NCBI GenBank assembly: GCA_044892505.1
Contig: CM097882.1
Span: 442,742,001-442,806,000 of the forward strand
Source: Schmidtea nova
Lineage: Eukaryota
DNA: 64,000 bases
Direction: 5' to 3'
The notes under the pieces were generated by a model. It was not told the origin of the DNA, did no database searches, and saw nothing but the letters and a program-made list of their open reading frames with translations. A program made the position numbers and the translations under genes. This document shows, in pieces, positions 1-37,758 of the stretch. Within the stretch, counting starts at the first letter, position 1. Each line of letters starts with the position of its first letter.

Positions 1-10
1 GTTTGAGCGC

Positions 11-520
11 TTGATAAAGGCTAGAAAAATGAAGAAACCGGGAAAGAAATTAGTTTCAAAGAAAGTATTTACAAAGAAAACAAAGAAACCAGTTTCAAAA
101 ACTAGTTATACACCATCTAAAAAATTACTTATTGATAATATCCCAAAAAGTAATCGTATTCAAAATACTTACAAACCAAATCCAAAACAAATACATCATC
201 GTAGTTTCTCATTTTTCAACGCATTACTTAAAGCCCCTAGTATTAGAAGAATGAGTATTTTACAATCGTTTCCTAATTACGTTATTGACGATTTACTAAT
301 GATTTTAATTAAAGTTGTTAGAGGTAAAATCAATATAAGTGAATCTAATAGAAGAGTTTTGAACAAACACAAGAAACCATTGTTATCACTTGTAAAAACC
401 AAAAATAGAAAATTAATGCGTAAAATAATATATAAACAACAAGGAGGGTTTATTGCAGCATTGTTACCATTAGCATTATCACTATTAGGAGGTGCTGGTT
501 TATTAGGAAAACAGTCATAA
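11..520 (+). CDS. Basic Polinton/adintovirus protein with C-terminal QQGGFIAALLPL motif (putative virion core protein); first ATG at 30
   Basis: K/R-rich ORF ending in HKKPLLSL...YKQQGGFIAALLPLALSLLGG, a pattern recalled from small conserved Polinton proteins. It lies directly upstream of the integrase. Confidence 0.65.
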   Translation: MIKARKMKKPGKKLVSKKVFTKKTKKPVSKTSYTPSKKLLIDNIPKSNRIQNTYKPNPKQIHHRSFSFFNALLKAPSIRRMSILQSFPNYVIDDLLMILIKVVRGKINISESNRRVLNKHKKPLLSLVKTKNRKLMRKIIYKQQGGFIAALLPLALSLLGGAGLLGKQS

Positions 521-575
521 ACAATGGGACAATCATTGCCTAATCTTAATTTAAACTTTAAATCTTCTTGTTGTA

Positions 576-1623
576 ATGGAGAAGATTTGGACCAACCCAA
601 AACACGAAGCAGGTTTCGGTGGAGTCGAAAAGCTAAGCAAAAATGTATTGAATTCGAAAAAACAGACTCAAAGTTGGTTATCGGGGCAACTTGCATACAG
701 TCTAAACAAACCGATGCTGAAACGGTTTCCGACTCGAGCATATAAAACATATAGAATTAATGATTTGTGGCAAATGGATTTGATGGAAATGATTCCGTAT
801 TCAAAAATTAACAAGGGATACAAGTATATTTTAACATGTATTGATGTTTACAGTCGTTTCGCTCGAGCTATTCCAGTAAAATCTAAATCTGCTAATGATA
901 TGGCAATCGCAATCAAAACAATGATGAAAAAGGATCGTCCAACTAATTTACAAACTGATTTGGGTAAGCTAATAAATATTTTATATAATGATAATTATTT
1001 ATCCAGGTAAGGAATTTTACAATAGCAAAGTCAAAGAAATTATAAAGGGAATCAATCATTACTCAGTATTCTCTCAATTCAAAGCCGCTCATGTTGAAAG
1101 ATTTAATCGTACATTACGAGATCGTCTCAAAAAGTATTTTGTGCATCAAGGGAATAAAACATGGATTAATGTTTTACCACAAATTATTCATAGTTATAAT
1201 CATTCTGCTCATCGAGGTATAAATGGAAAGAAACCTGCTGAAGTAGTTGATACTGAAAATATTTTGAGTGATACAAAAATAAAGAAACCAAAATATAAAA
1301 TAGGTGATCATGTTCGAATTAGTAAAATTAGCGCATCGCCATTCATTAAAAATTTTGATAGTAATTGGAGTGATGAGGTATTTCAAATATCGAAAGTCAA
1401 CACAGTCCAGAATCCTGTCATGTATACTATTTCTGATTCTGATAACAATATAGTCAGTGGAAAATTCTATAAACAAGAATTACAAGTTATTCCCCCTCCG
1501 ACAATATTTAGAATTCAAAAAATATTGAAAACTAAAATGGTCGGTAAAGATAAACAATACTACGTCAAGTGGCATGGATATAAAGAACCATCATGGATAT
1601 CGTCAAAAAACCTAGTAAAGTGA
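576..1623 (+). CDS. int: Polinton integrase (rve DDE plus C-terminal chromodomain), two exons 576-963 and 1007-1623, 334 aa
   Basis: Motifs WQMDL (D), spliced LQTDLGKEFY (D), HVERFNRTL (E), YKIGDHVRI, and the chromodomain YYVKWHGY. Removing the GT-AG intron 964-1006 joins the two listed ORFs in frame. Confidence 0.92.
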
Positions 1624-2639
1624 ATTTTTATACTTTATTACCAAGTAATAGCTGTCCGCTAATACATCCAGACAATCAAGCCAGTAAATTCATGGTCAAT
1701 CTTCAAAATCCAATTTATTTAGATGGTAATTGGGAAGTTGCATTACAAGATTTCACGTTTGTGTACAATACATTTCCATTTTATAGTCAATGTAAGATTG
1801 ATTACAAAAGAATTGAAAAAAGAACATGCAGTGGTCTATTCATCATCAACAATTTTGAAAGAATTTATAATATTCCTAACCAAAATTTGAATGTTCATTG
1901 TAGTATGTATTTCAGCAATGGTTGTTTAAATATTAATTGTGATTTTACTCCATATACAATTACATTTAAAAATATTGAAGAAGCCAAGCGAATGGGAAGT
2001 AATCAACTTAAAATTGTGAGTACACTGAAAGAATATCAATTTAAGTTCATATTATTTGAACCGAATAGTTATTTGAAAGAAGATATTACGGTGACAATAT
2101 CTTATGAGGCAGAAATTGAAGATACATTTACATTTGCAAATGATTTGTATATAGTACAATTGGAAGATTTATCTAAATATTTATCATTCAATTGTTCCCA
2201 TATCTTTAAAACTCTAGAGATTAATAAATGGTTCCAATTCTGTCTCAATGATAATATTAGTGAAGTTACATTTGATAAAAACTTGGTCAATACTTTAGGA
2301 TTAGCTAAACAAACGTATAGAGACCGAAACCTTATCGATGGGACTGTGAAACCTAAAATACTTGTTCATCATCAACAAATGTTCATTTACAGTAACATTA
2401 TTGAACCAATAATTGTCGGTGATTCTCTGGTTCCTCTACTGAAATCTGTATGGATCGAAAAATATGAACAGAATGAAGTTGTACAAATAGTAATGGATAA
2501 TCCAATGTACTTACCTATTTCTACCTCATGTATAAACAATATAGAAATAAATATACGTGACGATAGTGGTAAATTAATAAATTTTCCAAAAGATTCAAAA
2601 ACACATTTGACATTACATTTTCGTAAATTAAATGAGTAA
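1593..2639 (+). CDS. Minor capsid protein (penton, single jelly-roll; PX-type)
   Basis: N-terminal LPSNS..DNQASKFMVNLQNPIYLDGNWEVAL and C-terminal FIYSNIIEPIIVGDSLVPLLK..PMYLPI..IEINIRDDSG..LTLHFRK, both typical of Polinton minor capsids. Confidence 0.85.
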   Translation: MDIVKKPSKVNFYTLLPSNSCPLIHPDNQASKFMVNLQNPIYLDGNWEVALQDFTFVYNTFPFYSQCKIDYKRIEKRTCSGLFIINNFERIYNIPNQNLNVHCSMYFSNGCLNINCDFTPYTITFKNIEEAKRMGSNQLKIVSTLKEYQFKFILFEPNSYLKEDITVTISYEAEIEDTFTFANDLYIVQLEDLSKYLSFNCSHIFKTLEINKWFQFCLNDNISEVTFDKNLVNTLGLAKQTYRDRNLIDGTVKPKILVHHQQMFIYSNIIEPIIVGDSLVPLLKSVWIEKYEQNEVVQIVMDNPMYLPISTSCINNIEINIRDDSGKLINFPKDSKTHLTLHFRKLNE

Positions 2640-2997
2640 TCCCGATATAATTTCATTGTATAGTAATAGCCAAACCGGTGGTGAATTACCGTATTTTGTA
2701 GGTAAGCAGTATGGATCAGGTTGGTTGAAAACTATTGGTAGATTCGCACTTCCAATTCTTAAACGACTAGGTAGTTTTGGAATGAAAACTGCTAGAGATG
2801 TTATCATGAAAGACCAGAAAATATTGCCTTCATTGAAAACGAATGCTATGGATGCTGTTTCAAAAGCGATTCCTTCAATTACAAATATGTTTACAAAAAA
2901 TGAACCAGAACCTGAACCAGTAGAACCAAAACGTAAAAAAGGTAGAAAGCGTATAAACAATCGAATGAAAGGACATGGAACTATATTTGAAGAATGA
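2632..2997 (+). CDS. Small Polinton structural protein with QTGG/QYGSG motifs and an amphipathic helix (adenovirus pVI-like by analogy)
   Basis: LYSNSQTGGELPYFVGKQYGSGWLKTIGRFALPILKRLG followed by a basic tail; lies between penton and major capsid with overlapping start/stop codons. Confidence 0.65.
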   Translation: MSNPDIISLYSNSQTGGELPYFVGKQYGSGWLKTIGRFALPILKRLGSFGMKTARDVIMKDQKILPSLKTNAMDAVSKAIPSITNMFTKNEPEPEPVEPKRKKGRKRINNRMKGHGTIFEE

Positions 2998-4214
2998 TTT
3001 GCGGTAAATCTGAATTATGTCTTTTTGATCGACCATCTCCCCAAGCAGTTATTGAATATGGGGTGTTTGAAGAGGTGTTTCCAATGAATTCCATTACAGA
3101 TAGTAGAAATGATATCGAATTTTACATTAACGGTTCACAAACCGAATATTTAGATTTGAATGATACTTTATTATTCGTTACTGTCAAAGTTGTAGATAAA
3201 GATAAAAAACAATTAGCTGATGCTAGTGATGTAGTACCTAATAATTACCTGTTTCATACACTTTTCAAAGATGCAATTCTTGGATTTAATAATATAAAAG
3301 TTGAAGGTGGAAACAATACATATGCGCACAAGGCAATAATTGAAACTATTTTAAATTATACTAGTGATGCAAAAGAAACTTGTCTTACTCCAATGGGATA
3401 CGGCGCATCTGACGATAGAAAAAAGTGGATTAAAGGATCGAAACTTTTCAACATGTGTTCATCATTACAACTAGATTTTTTGGATCAACCTAAATATTTA
3501 CTTCCGGGAGTTAATGTACATATTAGATTGAAGAGATCTGATTCTGCATTATCATTGGCATCTACAGCTGGGAAACCAATAATATAAATAGTAGATGCAA
3601 AATTAATGGTACGAAGAGTTCGATGTGAATCTTCAGTATTAGCTGGACATCAAATTGGATTAAATAACAAACATGCAATTTATCCGATAAAATCAAAAGA
3701 AATTGTATCTTTTGCAATCGGTAAAGGGGCATCATCATTTTACAAGGAGCAAATATTTGGAGATAGAAGAATGCCTAATTTCATTCTTGTAGCTTTTCAA
3801 ACTGAAAATCAATATAACGGATCTTATTCTGCTTCTTCATCTACATTCAAACATTTCAATGTAACATCATTATCTCTGTCAAAAAATACAGATTATCGGG
3901 AAACTTATAATCAAGATTTTGAAAATGATAATTTTAGTGCCACATATATGCAAAGTCTTGTCCGGAATTTAGGATATTTGGATAAAAACTTGAATTGTGG
4001 TATAAGTCTAGATGAATTTAAATCAAGTTATCCATTCTTTACGTTTGTTCTTGCTCCTGATTTCGATTTGAATCAAAGTCAAATCCCTCAAAATGGAAAT
4101 TTACGATTAGATATCAAATTTGGTAAAGCCATTGAGGAACCGGTTCATGTAATAATATATGGAGTTTTTGAAAATGAAATCCAAATTACTGCAAATCGAA
4201 CAGTATTAGTTTGA
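2994..4214 (+). pseudogene. Major capsid protein (double jelly-roll; PY-type) with one in-frame TAA at 3585-3587
   Basis: Motifs KSELCLF, IEFYINGSQTEYLDLNDT, YLLPGVNVHIRLKRS, MPNFILVAF, GNLRLDIKF. ORFs 2994-3587 and 3606-4214 are in the same frame (612 nt apart) and separated only by the stop. Confidence 0.85.
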
Positions 4215-4279
4215 GCTCAAACATCACTGGTTTGAACTCTTATAGTAAAAATGAACCAAATCACTATAGTAAAATTATC

Positions 4280-4662
4280 ATGGAGTAAGATTTTAATTTG
4301 TAAAAATAATTAATTAAATTAGTTCAATTCAGGTATATAGACTTGGCAAAAAACTATTGGGAAATCAATTTATTGGAGTTTATCCCTTAGATAAAATTCC
4401 TTATCTGGATGTTAATCAAGCTATCATCGTAAATACTCAGACATCTACTTTGGGTGGTGAACATTGGATTGCTGTTTACGTTAAACCAGATCGAATATAT
4501 GCATTTGATCCATTTGGATGTTATTATCCCAATTTATTAGTTAGTAAATTGCAAACTTTGGGTAAACCGATTGTATACAATAGAATTCGATATCAACATC
4601 CATTAACAATTACTTGTGGTCAACATTGTCTTGCATGGTTATTATCCATGTTAAATGTATAA
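4280..4662 (+). CDS. pro: Adenain-like cysteine protease, two exons 4280-4284 and 4323-4662, 114 aa
   Basis: Catalytic pattern GEHW (H), FDPFG (D), YQ (Q), TCGQHC (C). Splicing 4285-4322 gives MDSIQVYRLGKKLLGNQFIGVYPLDKIP, a family-typical N-terminus. Confidence 0.85.
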
Positions 4663-4694
4663 ACAATTTAATAAAAATAAAATTTAGTATAAAA

Positions 4695-5081
4695 ATGACT
4701 TGTTATTTTATTGATTTTATAGGAATTTACAATAATGGAAGATTAATTATTAATGAATTATGTATTATAAACGTTAATAATATTTTTAGACCTAAATATT
4801 ACATATATAATAAAGTTTGTAGTGAGTGGTATGAGGAGGAAGATTACTTTTGTCCAACATGTATTATGAAAGATATTGAAGATAGTAATGCTATTTTCTA
4901 TGTCACGGATATGGATAAACTTATTGCTTTGAAGAAATATTTTCCCACTTTGAGACTAATCAAATATAATTTAAAAGAAATTGAAGATGTTCCAGATAAT
5001 ATTTCTTGTCCCTATAGAGACCATAGTATGTGTGCCTATAAAGAATGTTTGCGTAGTGTTATAGATTATTTAAAGTCATAA
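4695..5081 (+). CDS. Degenerate DEDD/DnaQ-like exonuclease-fold protein, probably inactive
   Basis: FIDFIG..IINELCII resembles the Exo I pattern but lacks the Glu; C-terminal CPYRDHSMCAYKEC cluster resembles small Polinton exonuclease-like ORFs. ATG at 4695 and a polyA signal near 5097. Confidence 0.5.
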   Translation: MTCYFIDFIGIYNNGRLIINELCIINVNNIFRPKYYIYNKVCSEWYEEEDYFCPTCIMKDIEDSNAIFYVTDMDKLIALKKYFPTLRLIKYNLKEIEDVPDNISCPYRDHSMCAYKECLRSVIDYLKS

Positions 5082-5483
5082 ATATATTGTTATTTCAATA
5101 AATTTATTTCATTGTATTAATGTCTTTTATTATTATTATTTAATGAATATTATTATTTGCAAACTAACAAAGTTAACAAAGACTAGATAAAGTCGACAAT
5201 GACGTCAGAGGTCATGAACTCACATGTCTTTATGAATTCACATGGAAACTGACATGACATCATATGTTATATTGACACACATACTAGTATTATAAACACG
5301 TCAGTGTAATAACCATAAAGAAATATATGTGTGCGTATATTTCTCTCACCTAAAACGTATTTGATTGGCCGGTAAATAACCGTTGAAATATTTTAGTTAT
5401 ATACACTATCTTTTCATTTTTCATCACTTTTTAACAACCAATTTTACTATTGCATTCAATTTAATTAAAATCTCTCAATCAAC

Positions 5484-5966
5484 ATGCTGAATAATATTAA
5501 AAATATAACAAAGAAGAATGTCGCCGCCATGGGTAATTTTATTTTTTATTTTATTATATTATCTTTAAATTATTTCAATTTTCAGCAGCTTCGAATGATT
5601 CCAAGTTGAAGTATGAAGCCCCAGTAAATATTGTTTTAGGGCAAAATGGTATTTATTTTTATTTTAAATATATTTTTTAAAATTTAAAATTTTAGAAATT
5701 CGACAAGTTAAATCAAATTTATTCAGACCGATAGACCAACGCGGACGCATTTTTCCCGCTGATATTGATGCCGAATATACTAATGGTAATTTATTATTTA
5801 ATATTATATATTGTTATTTTAGAAATTATTTTAGAAAATAATGACGAATGTAGAAAATCGTCGAAACAATTTAATAATAATGATGAAGATATGCCAAAGA
5901 ATTCGGAGGAAATATATAATATTTCGGATGATGATGATATTTTGAATGAAAATGAATCTGATAAAT
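5484..5966 (+). CDS. Hidden spliced gene of unknown function: exons 5484-5532, 5586-5648, 5696-5785, 5823-5966 (3' end unresolved)
   Basis: Three AT-rich GT-AG introns (53, 47, 37 nt), all phase 1. The spliced frame is open for 115 codons (MLNNIKNITKKNVAAMAASNDSKLKYEAPVNIVLGQNEIRQVKSNLFRPIDQRGRIFPADIDAEYTNEIILENNDEC...ESDK), and a strong GTAAGT donor follows at 5967. Confidence 0.75.
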
Positions 5967-6714
5967 GTAAGTTTTTATTCTATTTTTATAGCATTTTGAA
6001 ATACCTTTTTAATTTTATAATATATAATTAATAATTTTATAATATGTAATAAATGATTTTCTTAATATTAATAATAATAATTTTACTANNNNNNNNNNNN
6101 NNNNNNNNNNNNNNNNNNNNNNNNNNNNNNNNNNNNNNNNNNNNNNNNNNNNNNNNNNNNNNNNNNNNNNNNNNNNNNNNNNNNNNNNNNNNNNNNNNNN
6201 NNNNNNNNNNNNNNNNNNNNNNNNNNNNNNNNNNNNNNNNNNNNNNNNNNNNNNNNNNNNNNNNNNNNNNNNNNNNNNNNNNNNNNNNNNNNNNNNNNNN
6301 NNNNNNNNNNNNNNNNNNNNNNNNNNNNNNNNNNNNNNNNNNNNNNNNNNNNNNNNNNNNNNNNNNNNNNNNNNNNNNNNNNNNNNNNNNNNNNNNNNNN
6401 NNNAAATAATTTATGATATTATTTTAATAATTTTAAACTATTTAAGATATTTCAAGACATATCATAGTAAATTCGTTACTATAATATTTCTTCAAATATT
6501 TTAAACTTACTATTTCAAGTTATTTTTATAATAATAATAATAATTTACGTTATCTCACGATGAAATCGAGATAATGTACAAATATTTTATAATACTATTT
6601 TAATTCAATTTTAATTGTATAATTTTAATTTTATATTCTATTTTAATAATAATAATAAACATTTTATAATTTTCTCCTGTATATTCAGGCTCTCTATACC
6701 CTAAATATTGCAAC

Positions 6715-9700
6715 ATGTCAGGTAGACACAGCACTCAATGTCACAAACTCATGACTGTTTATTATCGTCAGAAGTTTAATGGCATTGATTACTATATATG
6801 TCCAAAATGTGAGACTTCACAATCCCTACCCTACTCTGATTTTTATTCTAAACATCATGAGCATCTTACACAATTTTTCAAATCGAAAAAACTTATTTTT
6901 AAAAAATGTAAAAATCAATCTTCTTCGTCGATTAAGGTATCTACTGAGAAATCGTCTTCGGTTAAAATTTCGTCGAATAATGTATCTGTTGATAATTCTT
7001 CTAAGAATAAATTACTCAATAATTTATTAAATAATTCAGACGTTCAAATTATTAATATAAATAATAATAATAATAATAATATCAAGAAAAGACCTGCTGA
7101 TAAAATTAAAATTATTGCACCTAAAAAATATAAACCAGAAGTAATTATAATTAGCGACGATGAGGAAATTATTAATCAAATAGGAGGATCTATTGATATC
7201 GACGATGAGCCTGTAGTGGAAAAAGACTTAAGGGGATCTCGACGCTCGTTAACTTTTAATGTTGAATCCCATAATATTAATCAAATTGCTGTCACAGAAA
7301 AAATTTCTGTGCGGTTAAATAAAGAAATTATCAAAATGGGGAACGTAAAAATTCAATTCGCCCTTAATATTGAATTTGAAAAAGATGGGGTCTTTAAGAA
7401 TGAATTTTTGTCCACTAAAGCTGAGATCTTTTCAGATAATTTCTTAATAGAAAGCATTAGGAAATTAAATAATAAAATAGAAAATTTTACACAACGGGGT
7501 AGCGGCTGGATTGTTAATAAAATAATGGAAATCCATTTTATTTTGACAAAAATTTCTACCATGAATCGATTATCTGGCCACGGACATTTTGAAACTCCTA
7601 GCCCATTAAAAAATAAAAGGGCAATTATAAATGTAAAAAATTCAGATGATTTATGTTTTATATATAGTGTTTTGGCTATAACAAAATATAATTTAATCGT
7701 TAATAATCATAGTTCAGCCTCGAGTTATGTACCGTATTTAAATGATTTAGTTTTTGACCCTTTAAAAGACTGTCCCATGAAATTATGTAATATCCCTAAA
7801 TTCGAAAATAATAACCCTGGCTTAGCCATTAATGTGCTATCTTATAACCCTAAAGTGATTAGAAATAACAATATAGATATAGAAGATGATGATTATGTTC
7901 CTCATCATCCCCACTTGGAAATAATCCATCGCACAAAATTAAATCATTTAAACCCTATTTATCTTTTATTATTAGAAGATAAGGGAATTTTCCATTATAC
8001 TGCAGTTATTAATCTGCAAAGGTTAATGAACAGTAGTATAAATAGTACAGTTACCAATAGGATTCAGTCGATATGGTGTCCCAGATGTTTAAACGGTTTC
8101 CGTATTCAGGAAACCTTTGATAAGCATTTTAATTTATGTAAAAATAATCAAATAGGTGCAACCCTTTATAGTCTACCAAAAAATAAATATTTAGAATTTA
8201 AGGACTATTCCAAAACCGTAACCCCACCTTTCGTAATTTATGCTGACTTTGAGTCAATTTTACCGGGTGATGACAGGTATCACCAAAAACATTTACCGAT
8301 ATCAGCAGGTCTATTACTTTTAAATAATTTAAATAATTCAAAATCATATTATGAATTTATAGGTCTTGAATGTGTGTTAGAATTTTTAAAGAAAGTGGAG
8401 GAAATTGCTGTCACAATAGTACTCCCGTATTATGATTTATTCGGAAATACTCCATTAGGGCCTTTATCATTTGCTGAGCAGGAAGCTTTTAGGACTTGTT
8501 CAAATTGTTATTTATGTAAGAAACCAATTAGAAATAGAGTTCGTGATCACGATCACTTTTCCGGTAGATATCTTGGCGCTGCTTGCAACATTTGTAATAT
8601 TTCCCGTAGAATTAGAAAACACTTACCTGTTATTTTTCATAATTTGAAAGGTTATGACCTACATCACATTTTGAAGTATGGTCTGTCTGATTGTTCATCT
8701 TGGGAATTAAATATTATTCCGACTACTACAGAGAAATTTATTTCTCTTATAGCTCACATTGATAAACTTGCTGTTAGGTTTATTGACAGTTATCAATTTG
8801 TATCAGAGTCTTTAGGTAATGCGGTTAAAACTCTGTCAGTTTTTCCCTTAACATCTTCAGTTTTCACTGGTTCAATTATGGATTGTAAGGGTATTTTCCC
8901 TTTTAATTTTGCTACGAGTCTTGAAGTCCTAGAATCCACTCTTGAATTGCCTCCGATTTGGGCTAAGGTGTCTGAGGCTGATTATTTACGAGCTCAACAA
9001 ATTTGGACTGAAAATAATTGTCTCAACTTGTTAGACTATATGAAGGTTTATCTAAAGTTGGATGTATTTCTTCTAGCGGATTACTTTCAACAATTTCGAG
9101 CTAAGTCCATTGCTCACAATGGCTTAGATCCCTTAAATTTTTATGGTATTCCCGGTATGAGTTGGGCATCTGCTTTGATGACTTTGAAGGAACCCATTGA
9201 ACTCCTTCAAGACATGGAAATGTATAATTTCTATGAGGGAGGAATACGGGGTGGTTTGACATTCGTCAACAAAAAGTATGTAAAGACTGATGATGACACT
9301 GAGCTTTTATATATAGATATTAATAATCTATATGGTTGGGCTCTTAGCCAAAATCTTCCTTTTAGTGATTTTAGGTGGGTACATAATGATCTTGATAATA
9401 TCTTGACCGAATGCATGTCGACGGATATTGATAATCTTTCATATGGTTACACTATGGAAGTTGATATCATTGTTCCTGAAAACATGCATGTGTTTTTGGA
9501 TGATTTCCCTGTTGCTCCGGAAAAGATGTACCCACCAGGTTCGAAAGTTGACAAGTTAATGCTTACACATTATCCGAAGTATAACTATGTCATACATTGG
9601 AGACTGTTGAAGATGTTTGTTTCTCTTGGGGTTCAGGTAGTTAAAATTCATAGAGCGATTAGATTTAAGCAATCGAAAATCTTTAAGGCTTACATCGATA

Positions 9701-10662
9701 CGAATACTCAGTTAAGAGCAAACTCTACCAATAAACTCGATAAAAATTATTTTAAACTCAATAATAATAGCCTATATGGTAAATCCGTCGAAAATCTGAA
9801 AAAACGGATGAATTTGAGATTATGTAATTCATCTGAAAAGATGATTATATATGCTTCAAAGCCGTCTTTCAGAAAGTCCATCAAAATTGATGACGATCTG
9901 ATTGCAGCACATCTGAATAAAGATTTAATATGCTTAGATAGACCTAGTTATATCGGTCAAACGGTACTAGATCTATCTAAGCTGCGGATGTATCAACTGC
10001 AATATATTGAATTGCAGAAATATAGGGACCTCTTTGATTGTAAGATAGGAATTGTCGCTGGCGACACTGACTCGTTCTTTCTTGAGGTTAGACACTGTAA
10101 ACTTGATGTTCTCTTACCAGCTATGATTTCTGATGATCTTTTAGATACATCAAACTATGATCCAGACCATCCATTATATTCACGACGTCTCGACTCTGTT
10201 ATAGGGAAATTTAAGGATGAAAGTAAAGGTCATAGATATGAGGAATGGGTTTTCTTGCGTCCTAAATGTTATAGTCTTCTTGGTGATGCTGAATATAACA
10301 AAGCCAAAGGGATTACACTTGGCGAGACTGAAATAAAACATCAATCTTATCTTGACTGCTATCTAAATGACCGGATAATAACTGTTCCTCAAACGCGTAT
10401 AGGAACTAAAAATCACCAGCTTTATACGATAAAAAATACAAAAATAGCTCTTAGCAATAATGACGACAAGCGCGAATGGGTGGGGAGAAATGCAAGTCTC
10501 GCATTTGGTCATTATTTAGGAATCAATGCTAGAACCTATGACGATAACATTCCACCGAATCAATTACCGGATGAATTACCAAGTCAAATCAATGTGTCAA
10601 ATAACTATACCGATTATCCGTACGATTTCGGTGAATGGGCTGATCCCTTTGAAAGAACTTAA
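6715..10662 (+). CDS. polB: Protein-primed family B DNA polymerase (pPolB), intact, 1315 aa
   Basis: Exo motifs YADFES, HNLKGYD, YLKLDV; polymerase motifs YIDINNLYG, KLNNNSLYGK, GDTDS; also GIRGG, RPKCYS, KAKG. Carries a Cys/His-rich EndoVII-like segment (CYLC..RDHDH..GAACNICN). Confidence 0.97.
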   Translation: MSGRHSTQCHKLMTVYYRQKFNGIDYYICPKCETSQSLPYSDFYSKHHEHLTQFFKSKKLIFKKCKNQSSSSIKVSTEKSSSVKISSNNVSVDNSSKNKLLNNLLNNSDVQIININNNNNNNIKKRPADKIKIIAPKKYKPEVIIISDDEEIINQIGGSIDIDDEPVVEKDLRGSRRSLTFNVESHNINQIAVTEKISVRLNKEIIKMGNVKIQFALNIEFEKDGVFKNEFLSTKAEIFSDNFLIESIRKLNNKIENFTQRGSGWIVNKIMEIHFILTKISTMNRLSGHGHFETPSPLKNKRAIINVKNSDDLCFIYSVLAITKYNLIVNNHSSASSYVPYLNDLVFDPLKDCPMKLCNIPKFENNNPGLAINVLSYNPKVIRNNNIDIEDDDYVPHHPHLEIIHRTKLNHLNPIYLLLLEDKGIFHYTAVINLQRLMNSSINSTVTNRIQSIWCPRCLNGFRIQETFDKHFNLCKNNQIGATLYSLPKNKYLEFKDYSKTVTPPFVIYADFESILPGDDRYHQKHLPISAGLLLLNNLNNSKSYYEFIGLECVLEFLKKVEEIAVTIVLPYYDLFGNTPLGPLSFAEQEAFRTCSNCYLCKKPIRNRVRDHDHFSGRYLGAACNICNISRRIRKHLPVIFHNLKGYDLHHILKYGLSDCSSWELNIIPTTTEKFISLIAHIDKLAVRFIDSYQFVSESLGNAVKTLSVFPLTSSVFTGSIMDCKGIFPFNFATSLEVLESTLELPPIWAKVSEADYLRAQQIWTENNCLNLLDYMKVYLKLDVFLLADYFQQFRAKSIAHNGLDPLNFYGIPGMSWASALMTLKEPIELLQDMEMYNFYEGGIRGGLTFVNKKYVKTDDDTELLYIDINNLYGWALSQNLPFSDFRWVHNDLDNILTECMSTDIDNLSYGYTMEVDIIVPENMHVFLDDFPVAPEKMYPPGSKVDKLMLTHYPKYNYVIHWRLLKMFVSLGVQVVKIHRAIRFKQSKIFKAYIDTNTQLRANSTNKLDKNYFKLNNNSLYGKSVENLKKRMNLRLCNSSEKMIIYASKPSFRKSIKIDDDLIAAHLNKDLICLDRPSYIGQTVLDLSKLRMYQLQYIELQKYRDLFDCKIGIVAGDTDSFFLEVRHCKLDVLLPAMISDDLLDTSNYDPDHPLYSRRLDSVIGKFKDESKGHRYEEWVFLRPKCYSLLGDAEYNKAKGITLGETEIKHQSYLDCYLNDRIITVPQTRIGTKNHQLYTIKNTKIALSNNDDKREWVGRNASLAFGHYLGINARTYDDNIPPNQLPDELPSQINVSNNYTDYPYDFGEWADPFERT

Positions 10663-15075: not shown

Positions 15076-15568
15076 ATGAATATAAAAATTAAATTTCCTA
15101 AGAATGTTATAGATATTTTAATTAAATTTAACTCAAGATGTATATCTAATAATTCAAATTATGAAACATTAGGTGTTTGGGGCAATAAGTTACCTTTACC
15201 AGTGAATGTGGAGCAAAGTGTGAAGCAAGTAATAGTCTTTGTCTAATTTTGTCTAAATAAGTATTTATTACGGGGTTATTTAATTCCAAGAATTGATCTT
15301 GAACATGCCGGATTTGCGACTTTACAGGGAAGACGGTGTTTAAACGAAGATCGAATGTTACTCAAACAAATTAGCAAAAATATCCTTCTATTGGCTCTGT
15401 TTGACGGCCATGGTGCACCGTCTGCAGCAGATTTTGCCCAACACTATATGGAAGATTGCGTTAAATTTTGGCTTCTCAAAAAACACAAAGATCTCAAAAC
15501 AGTTATAACAAATAGCTTTCACGATTGCAATAATTTAATGGCTCATCATTTTGTTTTCTATGGATCAG
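15076..15568 (+). CDS. PPM1K: PP2C phosphatase, PPM1K-like; first two exons only (15076-15228, 15262-15568)
   Basis: Spliced frame gives ETLGVWGNKLPLPV..LIPRIDLEHAGFATLQGRRCLNEDR..ALFDGHGAPSAADF..MEDC..GSG. It has a basic N-terminus, a 33-nt intron and a donor at 15569. Later exons were not found. Confidence 0.65.
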
Positions 15569-16170
15569 GTGATGGAATTTCTTTTAATATCTTAGTTAAC
15601 AATTTTTTTAAAATATTTATTTTTTTTAATTTTTGTGATGTAAATACAGCTAATTCTGTTTTTACACGATAAAAAGCACACGAAGGCTCTGTATCCAAGA
15701 TTCATGACCGCTGGTAGTTAGAGTAACCTGTTAAATTTCCTCATGAAATTCAGATAGTATTGTATCATTAGCAATAATTATAGCTAGATATCGTTAAAAA
15801 GCTCATTTAAATTTAACTTGGAATTATTAATAGCTATTTTATAACATTTATAGCAGCTCTTCTATAAAGTTCTCAATTCATAATTGTTTTTCATTGTTCA
15901 TATTTAAACAATATCCAATGCGCAGTGTAGCAAATTTGGCTTAGAGCAAAGGTATATTTAGGCAGATTATATTACTTAATATCTTCATTTCACAAAAGAA
16001 ATCTATTTTCTATTGTCTTGTTCACTCTATAACTATTTAAACCAAATTAACAACGATTACCTCAAATGACCTTGAATTCAATTACATGACGTCATTACAT
16101 GTATGCTGCGTGAAAGGGATGGTAAATGTTACGTAATGATTGTATAATAACATGTGTTACGACAAATCCG

Positions 16171-21753: not shown

Positions 21754-23244
21754 TTATTTTTTGAATTTTAACTTCCGGAAGTCACGAGAAATATAGGATA
21801 GGTACATGATGAGTCCACTTATTGCTATAATAATACCTACAACAAAAAAGGTAATATTGTAAGACAAAGTCATGTCATATATCCATCCAGAAATCGGTGG
21901 ACCGATAAAAACTCCTATTCCTTGATTGACAAGAATTACACCTAATGTCGCATCTAAATTTTTCAAACCGAAAAGGTCAATCAGTATGACAGATGAAAGG
22001 GTCATGACAGGTCCACTCATAGTTCCATATATGAAATTGTATATAATCATAAAAATATAAGTATTCATTATCCAACTGAAGCTTAAAACTAATCCACTCA
22101 AAACAAGTGTCATATTATACAGATGAAATCGGTTTACACCTCTAAATGTTGCCAAGTACCCAAATCCTAACCTTCCACATAAATTTCCAATACCAATTGA
22201 GGCAATTAAATGACTTGCTTTGCTGGTTGAAATTCCAGATAGTAAAGCTCTATCTTTAGTAAACATATAGGGGGTATCGAATCCAATACTTGTTAAAAAA
22301 TTTGAAATAATGAATAATATAAAAACCGGATTTTTCAATAATTGTATAATTGATAGACTTGCATTTTCTTCAGGCTTTCTATCGACTTCATCTTCTAAGC
22401 ATTTATCAGTTTCATTTATCTCTTCTTCAGAAATATTAACGGAAGCAGGATTTACAATGTCTTGTTCACTGTGTTTTCCCTGAGGTTCCCGATTTTTAAA
22501 GGTCAGTGAAGAAAGTATCAAAGTGTATAATATCAGACTAAGGATCAACATGGTGAATTGCCATCCACGTTTTTCAATTAAAAATTCAATGAATGGACTA
22601 AAAATAAACGTTCCCAACCCCGATCCACAGATTGCGATTCCAAGAGCAAGAGATCTTTTCTTTTCGAACCAAACATTGACAATAATTATGGACGGCAAAT
22701 ACATTAACCCAAAACCTATAGAACTTAATACTGAACTAGACAATATTAAAACCCATAATTTATCGCAGAAATAAGGTATGGTGAAACCTAGGGCCCCAAG
22801 AAAGGCACCAGCAATTGCGACAGATCTATAACTAAATTTACTACATAAGTAACTTGATACGGGTGCCATGCAACATGTTATTGCAATGATCAATGACCCC
22901 ATGAAACCCACATTAGACCGGGATATATTGAAATATTTAATGAACTCCGGTGTAAAAACTCCATAGGAAAATAAAACTCCATCCACAACTAAATTGCTAA
23001 AAAAACAAGCAACTACCACAACCCAACCCCATCCTTGATCAGGTGGATGAATCTTTTCATTTTTCTTAAGCAGTTTCTCTTCTGTCTGTGTTTCTACTTG
23101 ATTTTTATCCCTACCCTCAAGGATTTCATTGATAATCATTATCTTACAACATTCAACCTCTTGTTTTATATCTTGATTTACATCTATTTTTTCTAAGTTA
23201 TTTTCAGTAATTTTTATAGTGCAATTTTTTTCATTAGACATCAT
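21754..23244 (-). CDS. Monocarboxylate transporter (SLC16/MFS), single exon, 496 aa
   Basis: Signature PPDQGWGWVVVVACF, WFEKKRSLALGI, two bundles of hydrophobic helices with a polar central loop, and GRLGFG. Confidence 0.93.
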   Translation of the reverse strand: MMSNEKNCTIKITENNLEKIDVNQDIKQEVECCKIMIINEILEGRDKNQVETQTEEKLLKKNEKIHPPDQGWGWVVVVACFFSNLVVDGVLFSYGVFTPEFIKYFNISRSNVGFMGSLIIAITCCMAPVSSYLCSKFSYRSVAIAGAFLGALGFTIPYFCDKLWVLILSSSVLSSIGFGLMYLPSIIIVNVWFEKKRSLALGIAICGSGLGTFIFSPFIEFLIEKRGWQFTMLILSLILYTLILSSLTFKNREPQGKHSEQDIVNPASVNISEEEINETDKCLEDEVDRKPEENASLSIIQLLKNPVFILFIISNFLTSIGFDTPYMFTKDRALLSGISTSKASHLIASIGIGNLCGRLGFGYLATFRGVNRFHLYNMTLVLSGLVLSFSWIMNTYIFMIIYNFIYGTMSGPVMTLSSVILIDLFGLKNLDATLGVILVNQGIGVFIGPPISGWIYDMTLSYNITFFVVGIIIAISGLIMYLSYISRDFRKLKFKK

Positions 23245-23318
23245 TGCTTATATAATTTAATAAAAAATTTAATATTTAAACTAATATTTAAATTAATATT
23301 TCCGCAGATATTATTCCC

Positions 23319-26099: not shown

Positions 26100-29000
26100 T
26101 TATAGTTCGCTGATGTCATGTATTTTCGAAATACACAATTTCCTAAACTCTTTTGGTAAGAGTATTCTTGGTGTATTTTCATTGCTGACATCGTACCAAA
26201 GTTCATTGATTTTCTCTAATTTCAGGCTGTGTTTTAGGGGGAGTTCTTTTAAGGTTTCTGATTGTTTGTTTTTAATTTTTTCGTTTTCAAATAGTTCGCC
26301 AAATTCTAGTGCGTTTATGTCTGTTTCTATTCTTGACAGAGTATCTGCTGCGATATTTGCGGCGCCAGCGACATAATTGATTGTGCAATTAAATTGTGAT
26401 GTATAATTTAATTGTCTTATTTGTCGTGGTGATGGGTTTTTCATTTGTATCGCGTTTGTTAACGGTTTGTGGTCCGTATATATTTTGAAGTTTCTTGCTT
26501 CCAGAAAGTGTTGGAAGTGTTTGATGGCTTCATGTATCGCGAGTAATTCTCGGTCAAAGGTTGAGTACCGTGTTTGATGTGTTTTTAGTTTTTTAGAGAA
26601 AAACCCGATTGGCTGTTTGCTGTATTTGTTATCTTGATATAAGGTTGCGCCCATTGCATATCCAGAGCAGTCTGTTGCTAGGTTGTAGTCTAGTTCTGGA
26701 TTTGGATATCCGAGTAATGTTGCTTGGGATAAGCTTGTTTTTGCTTTTTCAAACTGTTTGGTAGTTTGTTCGGTCCAGTTTATTTTATTATTTCTTCTTG
26801 TTTTGATCAGGTCGTTTAATGGAGCTAACAATTCACTGCAGTTAGGGACGTACGCGTGGTAAAAGTTTACCATCCCCAAAAATCGTCTTAACTCTCTGTT
26901 TGTGTTCGGTAATTTGAACTCTTGTATCGTGCTTATTTTCTTGTCTATTGGCTTCGTGCCTTTTTCGTCCTGTGTGTGTCCCAGAAAATTAATCTCTTTT
27001 TTCAAAAATTCGCATTTTTGAATGTTTATTTTGAGATTTGCGGAGTTCAGCGTTTCAAACACCTTTTCAATGTCTTTTAAGTGAGTAGTTTTGTTTGGGC
27101 TTGCTATGAGGATGTCGTCCAAATAAGCTATTGTGTTCTGGTTATTTTTCAAAGTCTTGTCCATAAATCGTTGAAATGTTGCAGCTGCGTTTCGCAAACC
27201 AAATGGCATTCTGTTGTACTAGAACATGCCGATTGGTGGTACGATTGGTGTTTTTTTAATGTCTTCGTTCCTGATGGGTATTTGGTGGTAAGCCTTCTGT
27301 AAATCTATTTTCGAGAAGAGTTTTGCTCCTTTTAATCTGTTTATTATGTCTCTGATGATAGGCAGCGGGTAGTTGTCTGGTTCCGTGATTTTGTTGAGCA
27401 TTCGGTAGTCGCCACAAGCTCTCCATTCCCCGTTTGCCTTTTGTTTGAGCATGAGTGCTGAGGACCAATCAGAGTTCGAGTGAGTTACTATTTTGTTTTC
27501 TAGTAACTCCTTGAAAATTTCGTTCGTAATTTTTGTTTTTTGTGGATCTAGTTGTCTCACCTTTGCATGCACTGGGTTTCCGTTTGTTATGATTGCATGT
27601 TCGGTGCAGTGATCCGCGTTTTTGTCAAAGGTTACTGGTTCGGTGAGTTTTTCGAATTTTCCCAGTAGTTTATTTATTTCTGGGTCATGATTCAATTTTG
27701 TTTTTGTTTATTGTTAGGTGAACCCGTTTGGATAACACCGATGTCTATTTTTGGTTTTCCTCCATTGCTTGTGTTGTGCTGTGGTGTTGTAGTATTAGTA
27801 ATATTTTCTATTATTTGTTTGTTTTTACAATCCACTAGGAGGTTGTAATTTGTTAGGAAATCTGCTCCTATTATTGCTTGTTGGACCTCAGCTATGGTGA
27901 ATGTCCAGTTGTAGTTCTTTTTATTTATGTTTAAATTTATTTTTTGTTGCCCGAAAGTTTTTATGTTTGTGCCTTTAGCTGCTGTTAATGGTTTTTCTGT
28001 TTTGTTGACACTTTTATACATAGAATGGGGCAGTAGTGAGGTCACCAAGCCGGTGTCTTTTAAAAAATCTATGTTGTTTGTGTGCACCCAAAATGTGTTG
28101 TTTTTGTCACCTGATGTGGGTGCTATCATTGGTGACCTTATTGGTTTCCCTGCTCTGTTTTATTGAATTCGCAGGGTTGTGTGCATTTAAATGCTTTTTC
28201 ACCGAATTTGTTGTGGAAATAGCATAGGTTTTTGTTTAGGAATGTTTCTTGAATCTCTTTCTGGATTTCTGTTTCGGTAATTGTTGCATCGATTTGGGGA
28301 GTTTGATCGATTTCTGTAATTGTTGTTTGGTGATTGACTGCGGCTGTAGTTTTGTCTGTTGTATTCTAGGGGTTGATTGTAGCATTGTCTGTTTTGACCG
28401 TTGGATGTTTGGTCTCTGTTGTGGTTGTATCTGTTGTAATTATCGTATGATTGTGTTGAGTTAAAGTTTGGTTTGTTACAACGTTCGTTTATTTCGGCTA
28501 GTTCTGTTTTGATTTGTTTGTTTTCGACTATTATTTCGTCGAATTGGCCGATAAGAGTGTTTAGTAGGTTGTTCATGTTTTCGTTTTGTTCGTTATTTTT
28601 GTTGTATGAAGGGTTATTGTAGTTAGTTTTGTTTTTGTTGTGGTTTTGGGTGCTGCATATAGTCGAATAAATTTCCTCGTTGATTTTATCCGCTATGTCG
28701 GCAAGCGTTTCAACATCAGCGTTGTTGCTGGCTGCCAGAATCCTCCTGATTTCTGGTGGCATTGCTCGCATGAAAAATTCTTTTACTAGTTCGTTTGAAC
28801 CCGAATTTGTGATATTTGGTTGCAAATATTCTAGTTTTTGTTTTCATTGCCTGAGGAAATCAATGGGTTTTTTGTCACCTAATTGAGGCAAGATTCGAGC
28901 ATTTGCCGTCTGTTTATTTTATTTTTGATTGTAAGGATCTTACACAGTTTCTTAAAGGGGTCGTCATCCTTAGAAATTTCTTCAATCTGATCCGCTATTT

Positions 29001-29630
29001 CATTTAGTTTGTTACTGGGTAGTGCAGCTATGATTTTGGAGCACAGAGTTTTTGTGGATTTTATACCTGAAAGGGTTAGTGTTAATTTGGCAAATTCCAG
29101 CCATTTTTGTGGAGTGCCATTTTCGTCAGTGAAGTAGTTTGGTAGGTTGGGTTTCGGGTTAATTACAGAGTTTATGGTGTGTGTGTTTTCGGGGTTGTAA
29201 TAGTAGTTGTTGTTTTGGTGTTGGGATTGTGCATTTTCGTTGTCAATGGGTGTTTGGGTAATATTTGTTTGGTTTAGTTGGTTGGTTGCCATCGCTTTTA
29301 TTTATGTGTTGCTTGTTGATGCGAAAAAAATCGAGTTTGTTTCAAGGATATGGCTTACTGTGTTCAGCCAAAAGATCTCACCTTCCTTTATAGTTCTATA
29401 CTAACTATTCTAAAAGGAAAAGGTGATTTGAGAAAAATTTCGTCGAGTGTGTGTGTGTGTGTGTTGACTTCTGACACCAGTTGTAAATGCGATATTTACT
29501 TGTTTCGAATGGCTTTAGAGTAAGATATTACGGATATGTACAAGGAGAAATGTAAGCGCCCGAGAGAGTCAGCCCGATTATTGTGGGGACACTCGGGGTG
29601 TATGCTATGTAATGCGGGAAGGAAATAACA
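26100..29630 (-). mobile_element. Decayed Ty3/gypsy retrotransposon: 5' LTR, PBS, gag, protease, RT, RNase H; integrase and 3' LTR missing
   Basis: Gag in two frames (28879-29292, 28199-28825); protease FLKDTG; RT CGDYRMLN, FSKIDLQKAYHQI, MPFGLRNA, YLDD; RNase H ATDCS, RELLAI, YTDHKPL. Several frameshifts; the sequence breaks at the start of the integrase zinc finger (KIHDISEL). Confidence 0.92.
29467..29479 (-). other. Primer-binding site TGGTGTCAGAAGT (tRNA-Leu type)
   Basis: Lies 2 nt downstream of a TGTTATTT...TTTACA LTR candidate (29482-29630). The sequence matches the recalled tRNA-Leu 3' end complement TGGTGTCAGAAGTGGGAT over 13 nt. Confidence 0.7.
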
Positions 29631-34877: not shown

Positions 34878-37758
34878 TAGAGTTTCTGGTTTCCCGACTT
34901 TTTTTAATTTTCGGGATTCGGGAATTCTCATTTTTGATAAAAATATATTTCTCGAGAATCGGGATGATTTTTAAAATTCCAGAGAATTATCGGGATATCC
35001 CGAATAAAAATCCTTTTTAAAAACTACACGAAATAAGATAAATTTGAACAAATAAATGGTATTTCGGTATTGCTTTTACTGAAAACAAAATTTATACATT
35101 AAATAATTCATTAAAAATAAATAAAAAAAATATTCATACATATATAACCATATTTTTTTTTATAAATACAATTTATTGAAAAAAAATGAAAATAAAAAAT
35201 AAAGGAAGCAATAATAACATTAAAAACTACTGTCCCAACTAAGACAATAAAGGAACTAACAATTTTAATAAAACAGATATATTATTTTTCATGTTTTTGA
35301 AAATAATTTTTCAAAAAACAAAGGCAATTTAAATGTTTATCTGTCAAACGTCCTCTTAGTTTGGATGCAAAGTTATTTGAAACAGAAAAGTTTCTCTCAT
35401 TTTCTGTTGAAATAGGTTTTATAGTCATAATTGCTTCCTTTAGTTTTTTAAAATTTTTGGTTATATTTCCAGTTGCTTCATAAATACTTATTTCTTTGGA
35501 AAGTAAACGATATTCGCCATCGCTCACAATTTTGCTTGGTGCCAGTGTTTTTGAAATAGATTCTTCCAATTGCTTGCTCATATTACATATTTTTATATTA
35601 GAATTATTATTATTTTCTTTAGTAATTGTAATACAATTTTCGTCATCATTTTCTATTACCATATCCACATCTTTATCAGTGTTTTTAAACAATCGTTTTA
35701 AAATCAATTTGGCTCTCTTCATTACTTCACTTTTAGAACTCAATTTAAAAAAATTATCCTCATCCTCATGTTGATCTTCAGGAATACAGAAAGTATTATG
35801 ATCCAGTAGAAATTTAAGCAGTGATACTAACGTAACGTCTCTCCTTTTTGATATTTGTGTTTTTATTTCTTTTAAAAGAGATGAACTTATTGCAGTATTG
35901 TTATTTTTAAGAGTTGTAAATAAAAATTTCAGTACACCTTCAGCAGATAATAAATTATTATCACGACGACTGAGTGCTTCAACAGATACTCTAGCTGGTT
36001 TCAAAGCATTTAATATATCATAAGCTAGCACTTCATCAATAGTAGGATTCCATAAATGCTCTGAATTTAAATCTTTTAAAACTTTCATTATTGGACTTTT
36101 AATTCTTAAAAACCTTTCAATCATTATTTCAATTGAATTCCATCGTGTCTTCACGTCTAATATACATTGTAATTCTTGTTTCTCTTTTTCTTTTACGTAA
36201 TTTTGCAGTAAAGCATTTCTTACAGGCGAGTTTTTAAACATTTTAACGATAGTTCCTATTTTTTTATAATAGTAAATTTTAAATTAAATTTAGTAGCTGC
36301 AGTTGATCTACTATCAGTATCACCAATACCATATTGCCAGTCATCTTCATCTCCTGATGAATCGGAGCAACCACTATCACTATTTTGGACACTAGAGCTA
36401 AAACCTTTTTGATAAAATGTTGACATAACAGCTAAATGCACTGCATGATTATAACATAATTGTTGATATGCTGGTGAAAGTTTACCGAATTTTATCATCA
36501 CACTCGCACCATCACTTGTAGTAGCAACTTTATCAGTTGAAAAATTTAAACCGAATGATTTCAAATTTAAATCAACCAATTCAATGGCTTTTTCGGCAGG
36601 ATCCATCTATACGAATTAAGCCCAAATTTTCAGATTCTCCGTCATGATAATATAATTGGATATTCATATATCTACTGTTTTTGAAACTTGTCCAATCATC
36701 GATTGACTGCGAGAATTTTTTATTATTGGATTTCATCAAATTTATTTTTCAATTATATCTAACTTTTTTTCATAATATTTATATATAAAACTGGATACAT
36801 AAAACTCGATGGCTTTTAAGGTATTTCTAATAAATTCGCTTTTTGTAATAGCATTAATTGAAAACCCGTCTTGGGCAGCAAGTTTTGAAACGACATATTC
36901 AATATTGTGTTTTTTGTTTACAGTAAAATATGTTTCTAATGCTTGTTTTTTATTTGATTCAAAATTCGGTTTTTTTGTTTCCTCCAATCTACGTTTCATC
37001 CGATGCTCCCCTCCACCCAAATGCCTATGTAATCCACTAGTTGACGACGCTTTGCATCCTATTGCTTTAATACAAAATTTACAAGTAGCTGTATCGCTAT
37101 TATCAGTTCTTTTGAAATAATTCCATATATTTTTACTTAAATATTCGTTTTCATTCTGTATAATCTAGAAGGTATTTAAAAATAAAGTACAAAATAGATT
37201 TTTTTAATATTTTAACAATACTAACTTCATTTCCATCCATATATAATTATTTCATTATGTTATAATAATTTTATATTGAAATGTATAGACTGGATCGATG
37301 ATTATATTTTTATAATATTTTAATCGAATTGAAATCAGTTTTTCAGCCACAATAATTTAATAATATTCTAGAAACAAATATAAATTCAATGTATACGAAA
37401 ATCAAAATGGAACACAAAATATATTACTTGCAAATAAATTGTAGTTTTTTCTGAAATTAGCACAATGACAATTAACAACTTACAATTTTTTGTTATATAT
37501 TACTTTTTCCCAGCTGAAATTTAAGTTTGACAGAAAGTCAAATAAAATGCGACTCGAAAATCCAAAAGTTAAGTTGAATTATTTCCAAACAATTTTTACA
37601 GCGGTTGCTTAAATTTCGATTTTTGAATACGAAATATATTTCTTTCCCGAGAAAAATAATATTTCCCGAAATATAGTTTAAAAAAAATCTCGGGAAAAGG
37701 GAAAAACAAATAAATTAGTTTTCTCGAAAATTCCCGAGAGAGAATTCTTGAGACTGCA
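34878..37758 (-). mobile_element. Decayed hAT transposon with BED-finger transposase (about 35282-37150, frameshifted)
   Basis: BED finger IWNYF..ATCKFC..STSGLHRHL; also LCYNHAVHLAV, LDVKTRWNS and ISTENERNFS. Imperfect ends with TTCCCG/CGGGAA subterminal repeats; no TSD, so the boundaries are approximate. Confidence 0.8.

What the first reader, a model, noticed from the sequence alone, without database searches (positions are those of the whole stretch)
963..1011. Integrase intron sits next to a catalytic Asp and is flanked by a GGTAAG direct repeat
Intron 964-1006 interrupts TDL-G-KEF two codons after the second DDE aspartate. GGTAAG is present at both 963-968 and 1006-1011. This is the footprint expected if the intron arose by insertion with target duplication or by tandem duplication of a proto-splice site. 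The second GTAAG also offers an alternative donor.
Basis: partly seen in the sequence, partly recalled or inferred. Interest (0 to 1): 0.7.

Follow-up and report, generated by a model that had tools for sequence, protein, structure and literature searches.

The report
Intron gained by a Maverick integrase
The integrase gene of a virus-like Maverick transposon is split by a short, likely spliced intron that about ten thousand copies in this genome share at the same spot, and repeats at its edges in the deepest-branching copies suggest it likely arose by an insertion that duplicated a splice-site-like stretch.

Summary
Observation confirmed: 964-1006 (GT…AG, 43 nt) splits the Gly codon two codons after the second integrase Asp; GGTAAG stands at 963-968 and 1006-1011. 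The gene belongs to a Maverick/Polinton. A GT…AG intron sits at this site in 10,530 genomic matches, against 164 uninterrupted ones. Interiors diverge to 60%, yet 99 of 100 listed copies keep GT-AG and both exons are under purifying selection (dN/dS about 0.13). It is very likely spliced; no RNA was available. The window's 6-bp repeat is weak evidence: only 1,691 copies have it. Three deep-branching families carry a 9-11 bp repeat centred on AG|GT at both junctions; 0 of 19 host introns reach 5 bp. Origin by insertion with a short duplication is about 60% likely. The 'alternative donor' is unsupported: half the copies lack it. Papers call Maverick core genes intronless, but introners in Maverick-like proviruses are published, and this scan noted spliced Maverick genes before on other DNA.

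The parts
576..963 (+). Integrase exon 1 (first ATG 576; first catalytic Asp likely 777-779, second Asp 957-959)
   Evidence: PF00665 rve E=1.8e-8; 175 homologues; alignment of an uninterrupted relative to foamy-virus integrase
964..1006 (+). 43-nt phase-1 GT-AG intron, likely spliceosomal
963..968 (+). First GGTAAG: last exon base plus donor
1006..1011 (+). Second GGTAAG: last intron base plus rest of Gly codon and Lys codon
   Evidence: varies among copies
1007..1623 (+). Integrase exon 2 (catalytic Glu likely 1096-1098; C-terminal chromodomain-like part)
   Evidence: PF00385 E=5.5e-5, below cut-off; dN/dS median 0.12
2..520 (+). Basic-protein ORF upstream of the integrase, shared with the intronless family
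1584..2639 (+). ORF in the usual place of the minor capsid gene (assignment inferred from position), no intron seen
   Evidence: colinear with the intronless family, 52%; no Pfam match
2991..4214 (+). Major capsid gene, broken in this copy by a premature stop at 3585-3587
   Evidence: PF21738 E=1.9e-4, below cut-off
4318..4662 (+). Adenovirus-type maturation protease
   Evidence: PF00770 E=8.9e-6
6670..10662 (+). 1,330-codon open frame, likely the protein-primed family B polymerase
   Evidence: family B motifs recognised by eye from recall; Pfam gave no polymerase match

Best explanation
Bases 964-1006 are a short GT-AG intron in the integrase gene of a Maverick/Polinton, likely removed by the host spliceosome, likely gained once in this lineage, and likely created by an AT-rich insertion that duplicated a short AG|GT-containing stretch. 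How it works: the element is transcribed in the nucleus and the host removes the intron, joining 963 to 1007 so that the catalytic Glu and C-terminal domain are read (inferred). Retention gives a stop at 1008-1010, before the Glu (shown from sequence). Origin (inferred): the conserved D-L-G-K codons can spell an acceptor-like and a donor-like sequence back to back. A staggered-break repair or short tandem duplication across that spot, with low-complexity filler, puts a donor at one end and an acceptor at the other without changing the protein. The window's GGTAAG pair is best read as an eroded remnant of that repeat plus one silent change. My odds: real spliced intron 0.95; single gain 0.8; duplication origin 0.6.
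For: 10,530 matches with GT…AG at this site, 0 in the reversed control. With neither end required, 99 of the first 100 listed are GT-AG and 1 is GC-AG, read by eye (10,664 matches). Lengths 38-48 nt in all three frames; interior 60% identical where exons are 87-92%. dN/dS median 0.14 (52 pairs) before and 0.12 (54 pairs) after the intron, of 55 pairs among 11 copies, those with dS of 0.1 or less dropped; median dS about 0.8. Retention stops within 20 codons in 29 of 31 distinct variants. Host short introns found are 36-81 nt, most 43-58. Intron-bearing copies form one side of a branch in the full-length DNA and protein trees; 79 of 80 metagenomic relatives are uninterrupted at the site and the other gave no motif. 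615 copies carry ATTTAG|GTAA at both junctions; a further family has the 9-bp form. These lie in the deepest branch and on both sides of the next split. Host background: 0 of 19 introns with a repeat of 5 bp or more, 0 of 19 ATTTAG acceptors, 6 of 19 GTAA donors. The same codons stand uninterrupted in 2 of 18 AT-rich DLGK relatives. Daphnia precedent: 33 repeats of 4-12 bp among 90 new introns (PMC4202315, passages).
Against: No RNA evidence of splicing was obtained. Monophyly is not firm once the deepest family is included (68/93 DNA, 90/75 protein), and rival trees were not rejected (p-AU 0.18 and 0.058); in the exon-1-only tree two intronless copies fall among intron-bearing ones at support 45. 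The long repeat needs a TTA Leu codon, which also appears sporadically in young families, so it can arise by silent change. Only 615 of 10,530 copies have the 10-mer and 1,691 the 6-mer. The host sample is 19 automatically called introns from myosin and kinase loci, some perhaps false. 26% of conserved Drosophila introns have 5-bp repeats. Interiors show no similarity to flanking exon in 20 of 21 copies. Subfamilies recombine (L104), which blurs the trees. The long repeat was noticed after the fact.
Confidence: 0.58

Rival explanations
1. The intron is real but the repeats are coincidence: a consensus donor and a T-rich acceptor meet conserved D-L-G-K codons in an AT-rich genome, and silent changes switch the match on and off. 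The origin leaves no readable trace.
For: Repeat length ranges from 2 to 11 bp across copies; 84% lack the 6-mer; TTA arises sporadically; G|GTAA is present in 15 of 66 uninterrupted relatives; Drosophila background 26%; dS near 1 between deep families.
Against: 9-11 bp repeats sit in three separate deep lineages; ATTTAG is the acceptor in most deep lineages but in 0 of 19 host introns.
Confidence: 0.28
2. The intron is the relic of a transposon or introner that inserted at AG|GT with a 9-10 bp target duplication and later lost its inside.
For: Repeat length fits Mutator-type target duplications (recalled); introners inside Maverick-like proviruses are published (PMC11957031, passages).
Against: The window's intron sequence was in integrase context in 29 of 30 loci examined, of 1,000 matches; the thirtieth matched downstream fully and upstream at 70%. 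No significant terminal inverted repeat in the filler of 7 copies (lowest p 0.06). The filler has no Maverick AGT…ACT ends, so self-insertion with a 6-bp duplication does not fit. Only the window's own intron type was searched.
Confidence: 0.07
3. The same site gained an intron more than once; the L256/L257/L259 family is a parallel gain.
For: Distinct interior and GTAT donor; support for joining it to the rest is 62-68 in DNA and 90/75 in protein; rival trees not rejected.
Against: The best trees need one change; same phase, same acceptor hexamer, similar length.
Confidence: 0.05
4. The 43 nt are not spliced; the integrase is dead and the copies were moved by intronless helpers.
For: No RNA evidence; intronless families with open integrase frames exist in the genome.
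Against: Purifying selection downstream of the insert across families with dS up to about 1; near-invariant GT and AG around a freely changing interior.
Confidence: 0.02

Closest known systems
Maverick/Polinton elements of animals (PMC8097293; bioRxiv 10.1101/2022.07.12.499685; passages read)
   Same: DDE integrase, packaging ATPase, capsid, adenoviral protease, long polymerase-like frame, long terminal inverted repeats, 6-bp target duplication, about 15-17 kb.
   Different: Both papers describe the core genes as intronless. Copy numbers there peak at 287 in vertebrates and 388 polymerase copies in Trichomonas (PMC10748475); here 10,530 integrase-site matches. Maverick expansion is reported in Dugesia flatworms (bioRxiv 10.64898/2025.12.11.693146, passages).
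New introns with flanking direct repeats in Daphnia pulex (PMC4202315, passages) and gain by tandem duplication at AGGT (PMC3443670, passages)
   Same: Short AT-rich intron, terminal direct repeat within 4-12 bp, proto-splice site.
   Different: Here the intron is old (dS near 1 between families), lies in a mobile element, and no source for the filler is known.
Introners in dinoflagellate Maverick-like proviruses (PMC11957031, passages)
   Same: Introns inside Maverick-type elements.
   Different: Those are mobile families mostly acquired after integration; this one is inherited at one site by the whole lineage and was not seen elsewhere.
Ginger1 integrase-like transposases with GT-AG introns (PMC2836005, passages) and P element IVS3 (PMC7776569, passages)
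   Same: A transposase or integrase whose full length depends on host splicing; retention truncates it.
   Different: Regulated splicing is shown for P elements and untested here.

Membership tests
Maverick/Polinton | Retroviral-like DDE integrase | tested here: met
   PF00665; foamy-virus integrase alignment
Maverick/Polinton | Packaging ATPase, adenoviral protease, jelly-roll capsid | tested here: met
   PF04665 in L031; PF00770 above and PF21738 below cut-off
Maverick/Polinton | Protein-primed family B polymerase | tested here: inconclusive
   1,330-codon frame with family B motifs by eye; no Pfam polymerase match
Maverick/Polinton | Long terminal inverted repeats with AGT…ACT ends and 6-bp target duplication | tested here: met
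   Inverted repeats in 3 of 4 sister copies examined; clean ends and AACTCC duplication in 1 of 4 (17,379 bp). The window's own right repeat was not found.
Spliceosomal (U2-type) intron | GT…AG ends kept across diverged copies, exons in frame when joined | tested here: met
Spliceosomal (U2-type) intron | Removal from RNA | not testable with these tools
   No RNA holder listed
Intron gained with a flanking duplication | Junction-spanning direct repeat above background and present in early branches | tested here: inconclusive
   9-11 bp in three deep lineages versus 0 of 19 host introns at 5 bp; small background set, root unresolved
Intron from whole-exon tandem duplication | Interior resembles the flanking exon | tested here: not met
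   1 of 42 comparisons (21 copies, two sides) at p=0.002, none else under 0.1; age could have erased it
Introner | Same intron sequence at unrelated loci; terminal inverted repeats | tested here: not met
   29 of 30 loci in integrase context; no significant inverted repeat in 7 copies; only the window's type searched
P-element-type regulated intron | Tissue- or piRNA-dependent retention | not testable with these tools
   needs RNA

The most novel reading that the evidence does not exclude
A virus-like Maverick gained a spliceosomal intron by duplicating a proto-splice site that its own catalytic motif encodes. The intron then became a host-controlled gate on integrase output, as IVS3 is for P elements, and this let the intron-bearing lineage grow to over ten thousand copies, far outnumbering its intronless sisters.
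Probability: 0.15. Interest if true: 0.78.

Novelty: new variant of a known kind. Interest (0 to 1): 0.5.

Why it matters
Intron gain is rarely caught with both states side by side. Here intron-bearing and intronless forms coexist in one genome, with thousands of copies at different ages, so the origin and later drift of one intron's splice signals can be followed directly. It also shows a Maverick core gene that likely needs the host spliceosome, which published descriptions and intron-blind screens for 'intact' elements would miss, at a copy number far above those in the papers read.

Tried and rejected
RNA: no RNA holder listed. Four runs of unknown kind, contigs only, one study, were laid on 1-5400; no 963-to-1007 joint is among the 15 joints shown, 441 not shown. 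This is no evidence either way. Viral contigs: no relative by single protein or alignment. The split-site pattern found nothing in metagenome or viral contigs. The metagenome search by alignment and the protein search favour uninterrupted genes, so intron-bearing relatives elsewhere could be missed. Whole-intron tandem duplication, introner origin and self-insertion by the element's 6-bp duplication were tested or considered and set aside. Kinase loci were nearly intronless and added little to the host background. Scripts stopped on errors after printing; the counts were redone and the tail. Literature: six searches listed no paper whose title, abstract start or read passages describe an inherited spliceosomal intron in an animal Maverick integrase; most subscription journals, Repbase reports and all supplements were not seen, so this does not show it is unpublished. 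The host organism was not identified.

Full report
What was checked. The coordinates are right. Bases 964-1006 begin GT, end CAG and split a Gly codon after its first base, two codons past the Asp at 957-959. GGTAAG stands at 963-968 and 1006-1011 and the match does not extend. The upstream part matches the integrase core family. An uninterrupted relative from the same genome aligns its TDLG with SDQG and its VER with VER of foamy-virus integrase; that these are the second catalytic Asp and the Glu is recalled. All 120 listed protein homologues have the motif unbroken.

The element. The gene lies in a Maverick/Polinton: packaging ATPase and a TBP-like gene just left of the window, capsid and adenoviral protease genes, and a 1,330-codon polymerase-like frame (Pfam did not name it). 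Of four sister copies examined, three show long terminal inverted repeats and one, 17,379 bp long, has AGT…ACT ends with a 6-bp target duplication. Against the intronless family, ATPase, capsid and protease genes are colinear; only the integrase changes frame, at 968/1006.

Is it an intron? A pattern for the motif split by GT…AG gives 10,530 matches in the 1.25-Gb genome, control 0. The uninterrupted motif gives 164. The two patterns differ in strictness, both are lower bounds, and matches are not whole elements. Without requiring the ends there are 10,664 matches; of the first 100 listed, 99 are GT-AG and one is GC-AG (read by eye). Lengths run 38-48 nt in all three frames, and the interior falls to 60% identity where exons keep 87-92%. 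Among 11 copies with open exons, dN/dS has median 0.14 before and 0.12 after the intron (52 and 54 of 55 pairs kept). The part after the intron could hardly stay under such selection unless it is translated. Retention stops within 20 codons in 29 of 31 variants. Short host introns are mostly 43-58 nt (19 found). Splicing is inferred, not observed: no RNA was available.

One gain or several? Intron-bearing copies form one group in the DNA tree of 51 copies (support 99) and among outside proteins (0.994; 98/94 for 11 of 12 rows). Adding further families lowered support (68; 62; 68/93; 90/75), rival trees were not rejected, and the exon-1-only tree mixes in two intronless copies at support 45. 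The codons that carry the repeat were left out of the DNA trees. Rows were chosen to cover the families seen, not at random; of the 30 near-identical copies only one was used. Of 80 metagenomic relatives 79 are uninterrupted at the site and one gave no motif, but that search favours such genes. A single gain within this lineage is the best reading, not a proven one.

The repeat. In the window the second GGTAAG is the intron's last G plus Gly and Lys codons fixed by the protein, so only two silent bases are free. Both copies are present in 1,691 of 10,530 matches and in 8 of the first 30 loci, all in a shallow part of the tree. In Drosophila 26% of conserved introns have repeats of 5 bp or more (PMC3443670, passages). 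Taken alone the 6-mer is therefore weak. But 615 copies carry ATTTAG|GTAA at both junctions and a further family carries the 9-bp form. These families are the deepest branch and members of both sides of the next split, and most other deep families keep the ATTTAG acceptor. In the host set 0 of 19 introns have a repeat of 5 bp, 0 of 19 end in ATTTAG and 6 of 19 start GTAA. Among 18 AT-rich uninterrupted DLGK relatives, 2 have the exact codons and 6 the near form. Multiplying these rough rates, with 5-10% assumed for the acceptor, gives a chance near 1%; the figure is after the fact and rests on small samples. Against it, the TTA codon appears sporadically in young families too (944 copies in all). 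I put a duplication-type origin at about 0.6.

Which mechanism? The interior does not resemble either exon in 20 of 21 copies, so whole-exon tandem duplication has no support, though age could hide it. The window's intron was in integrase context in 29 of 30 loci and fillers lack terminal inverted repeats, which argues against an introner. In two deep families the filler is built of AATTT-like units. Repair of a staggered break with low-complexity filler, as proposed for Daphnia (PMC4202315, passages), fits best; this is inference.

The second donor. GTAAR follows the acceptor in 5,270 matches, about half, and uninterrupted relatives often carry the same bases (15 of 66). It is not conserved, and using it would remove residues between the second Asp and the Glu. 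It is not excluded without RNA.

Comparison. Maverick core genes are described as intronless in vertebrates (PMC8097293) and nematodes (bioRxiv 10.1101/2022.07.12.499685). Introners in Maverick-like proviruses (PMC11957031), introns in Ginger1 transposases (PMC2836005) and the regulated P-element intron (PMC7776569) are known. Polintons are PIWI targets in a planarian (PMC8532177). Also opened without bearing on the verdict: PMC8502044, PMC6431247, PMC12220804, PMC11296320. Of every paper I saw only search listings and keyword passages, no whole text and no supplements. Earlier notes of this scan list six other Maverick-type elements with spliced core genes (unchecked), so the phenomenon recurs; none is from this genome.

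Verdict. A real and very likely spliced intron in a hugely amplified Maverick lineage. New variant of a known kind, interest 0.5.

Noticed in passing
G000 genome-wide: At least 10,500 Maverick integrase sites in a 1.25-Gb genome, about one per 120 kb; if most were full-length they would fill over a tenth of the genome (not tested).
   Followed up: partly
L109 + L110 (G000:C1:17242000-17261999): The intronless family often occurs as inverted pairs about 7.24 kb apart. This locus is a 14.2-kb palindrome with 6,852-bp arms 99.8% alike, each with ATPase, integrase and capsid genes; no polymerase frame was seen in L109.
   Followed up: partly
L031:8763-9275 (-): TATA-binding-protein-like gene inside the element (PF00352, E=1.7e-14).
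   Followed up: no
L031:863-5593: The element's left end (L031:5579) interrupts a retroelement-like region with zinc-knuckle and viral fusion glycoprotein (PF24664) frames.
   Followed up: no
window 3585-3587 and beyond 10,800: This copy has a premature stop in the major capsid gene, and its right terminal repeat was not found in the window.
   Followed up: partly
window 5500-6050 and L031:7800-8600: Small accessory genes of the element seem to carry further short AT-rich GT-AG introns (by eye).
   Followed up: no
L104 (G000:C1:4540200-4543300): Mosaic copy: intron of one subfamily with exon 2 of another, suggesting recombination between copies.
   Followed up: partly
L084, L089 family: A subfamily keeps open exons with a weak GTTAT donor; one listed copy has a GC donor.
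   Followed up: no
window 15247-15672, 21754-23247, 26100-29301, 35282-37164, 39689-41122: Other frames, named by eye from recall: a PP2C-like exon, a single-exon membrane transporter, a Gypsy-like retroelement, a hAT-like and a Mutator-like transposase.
   Followed up: no
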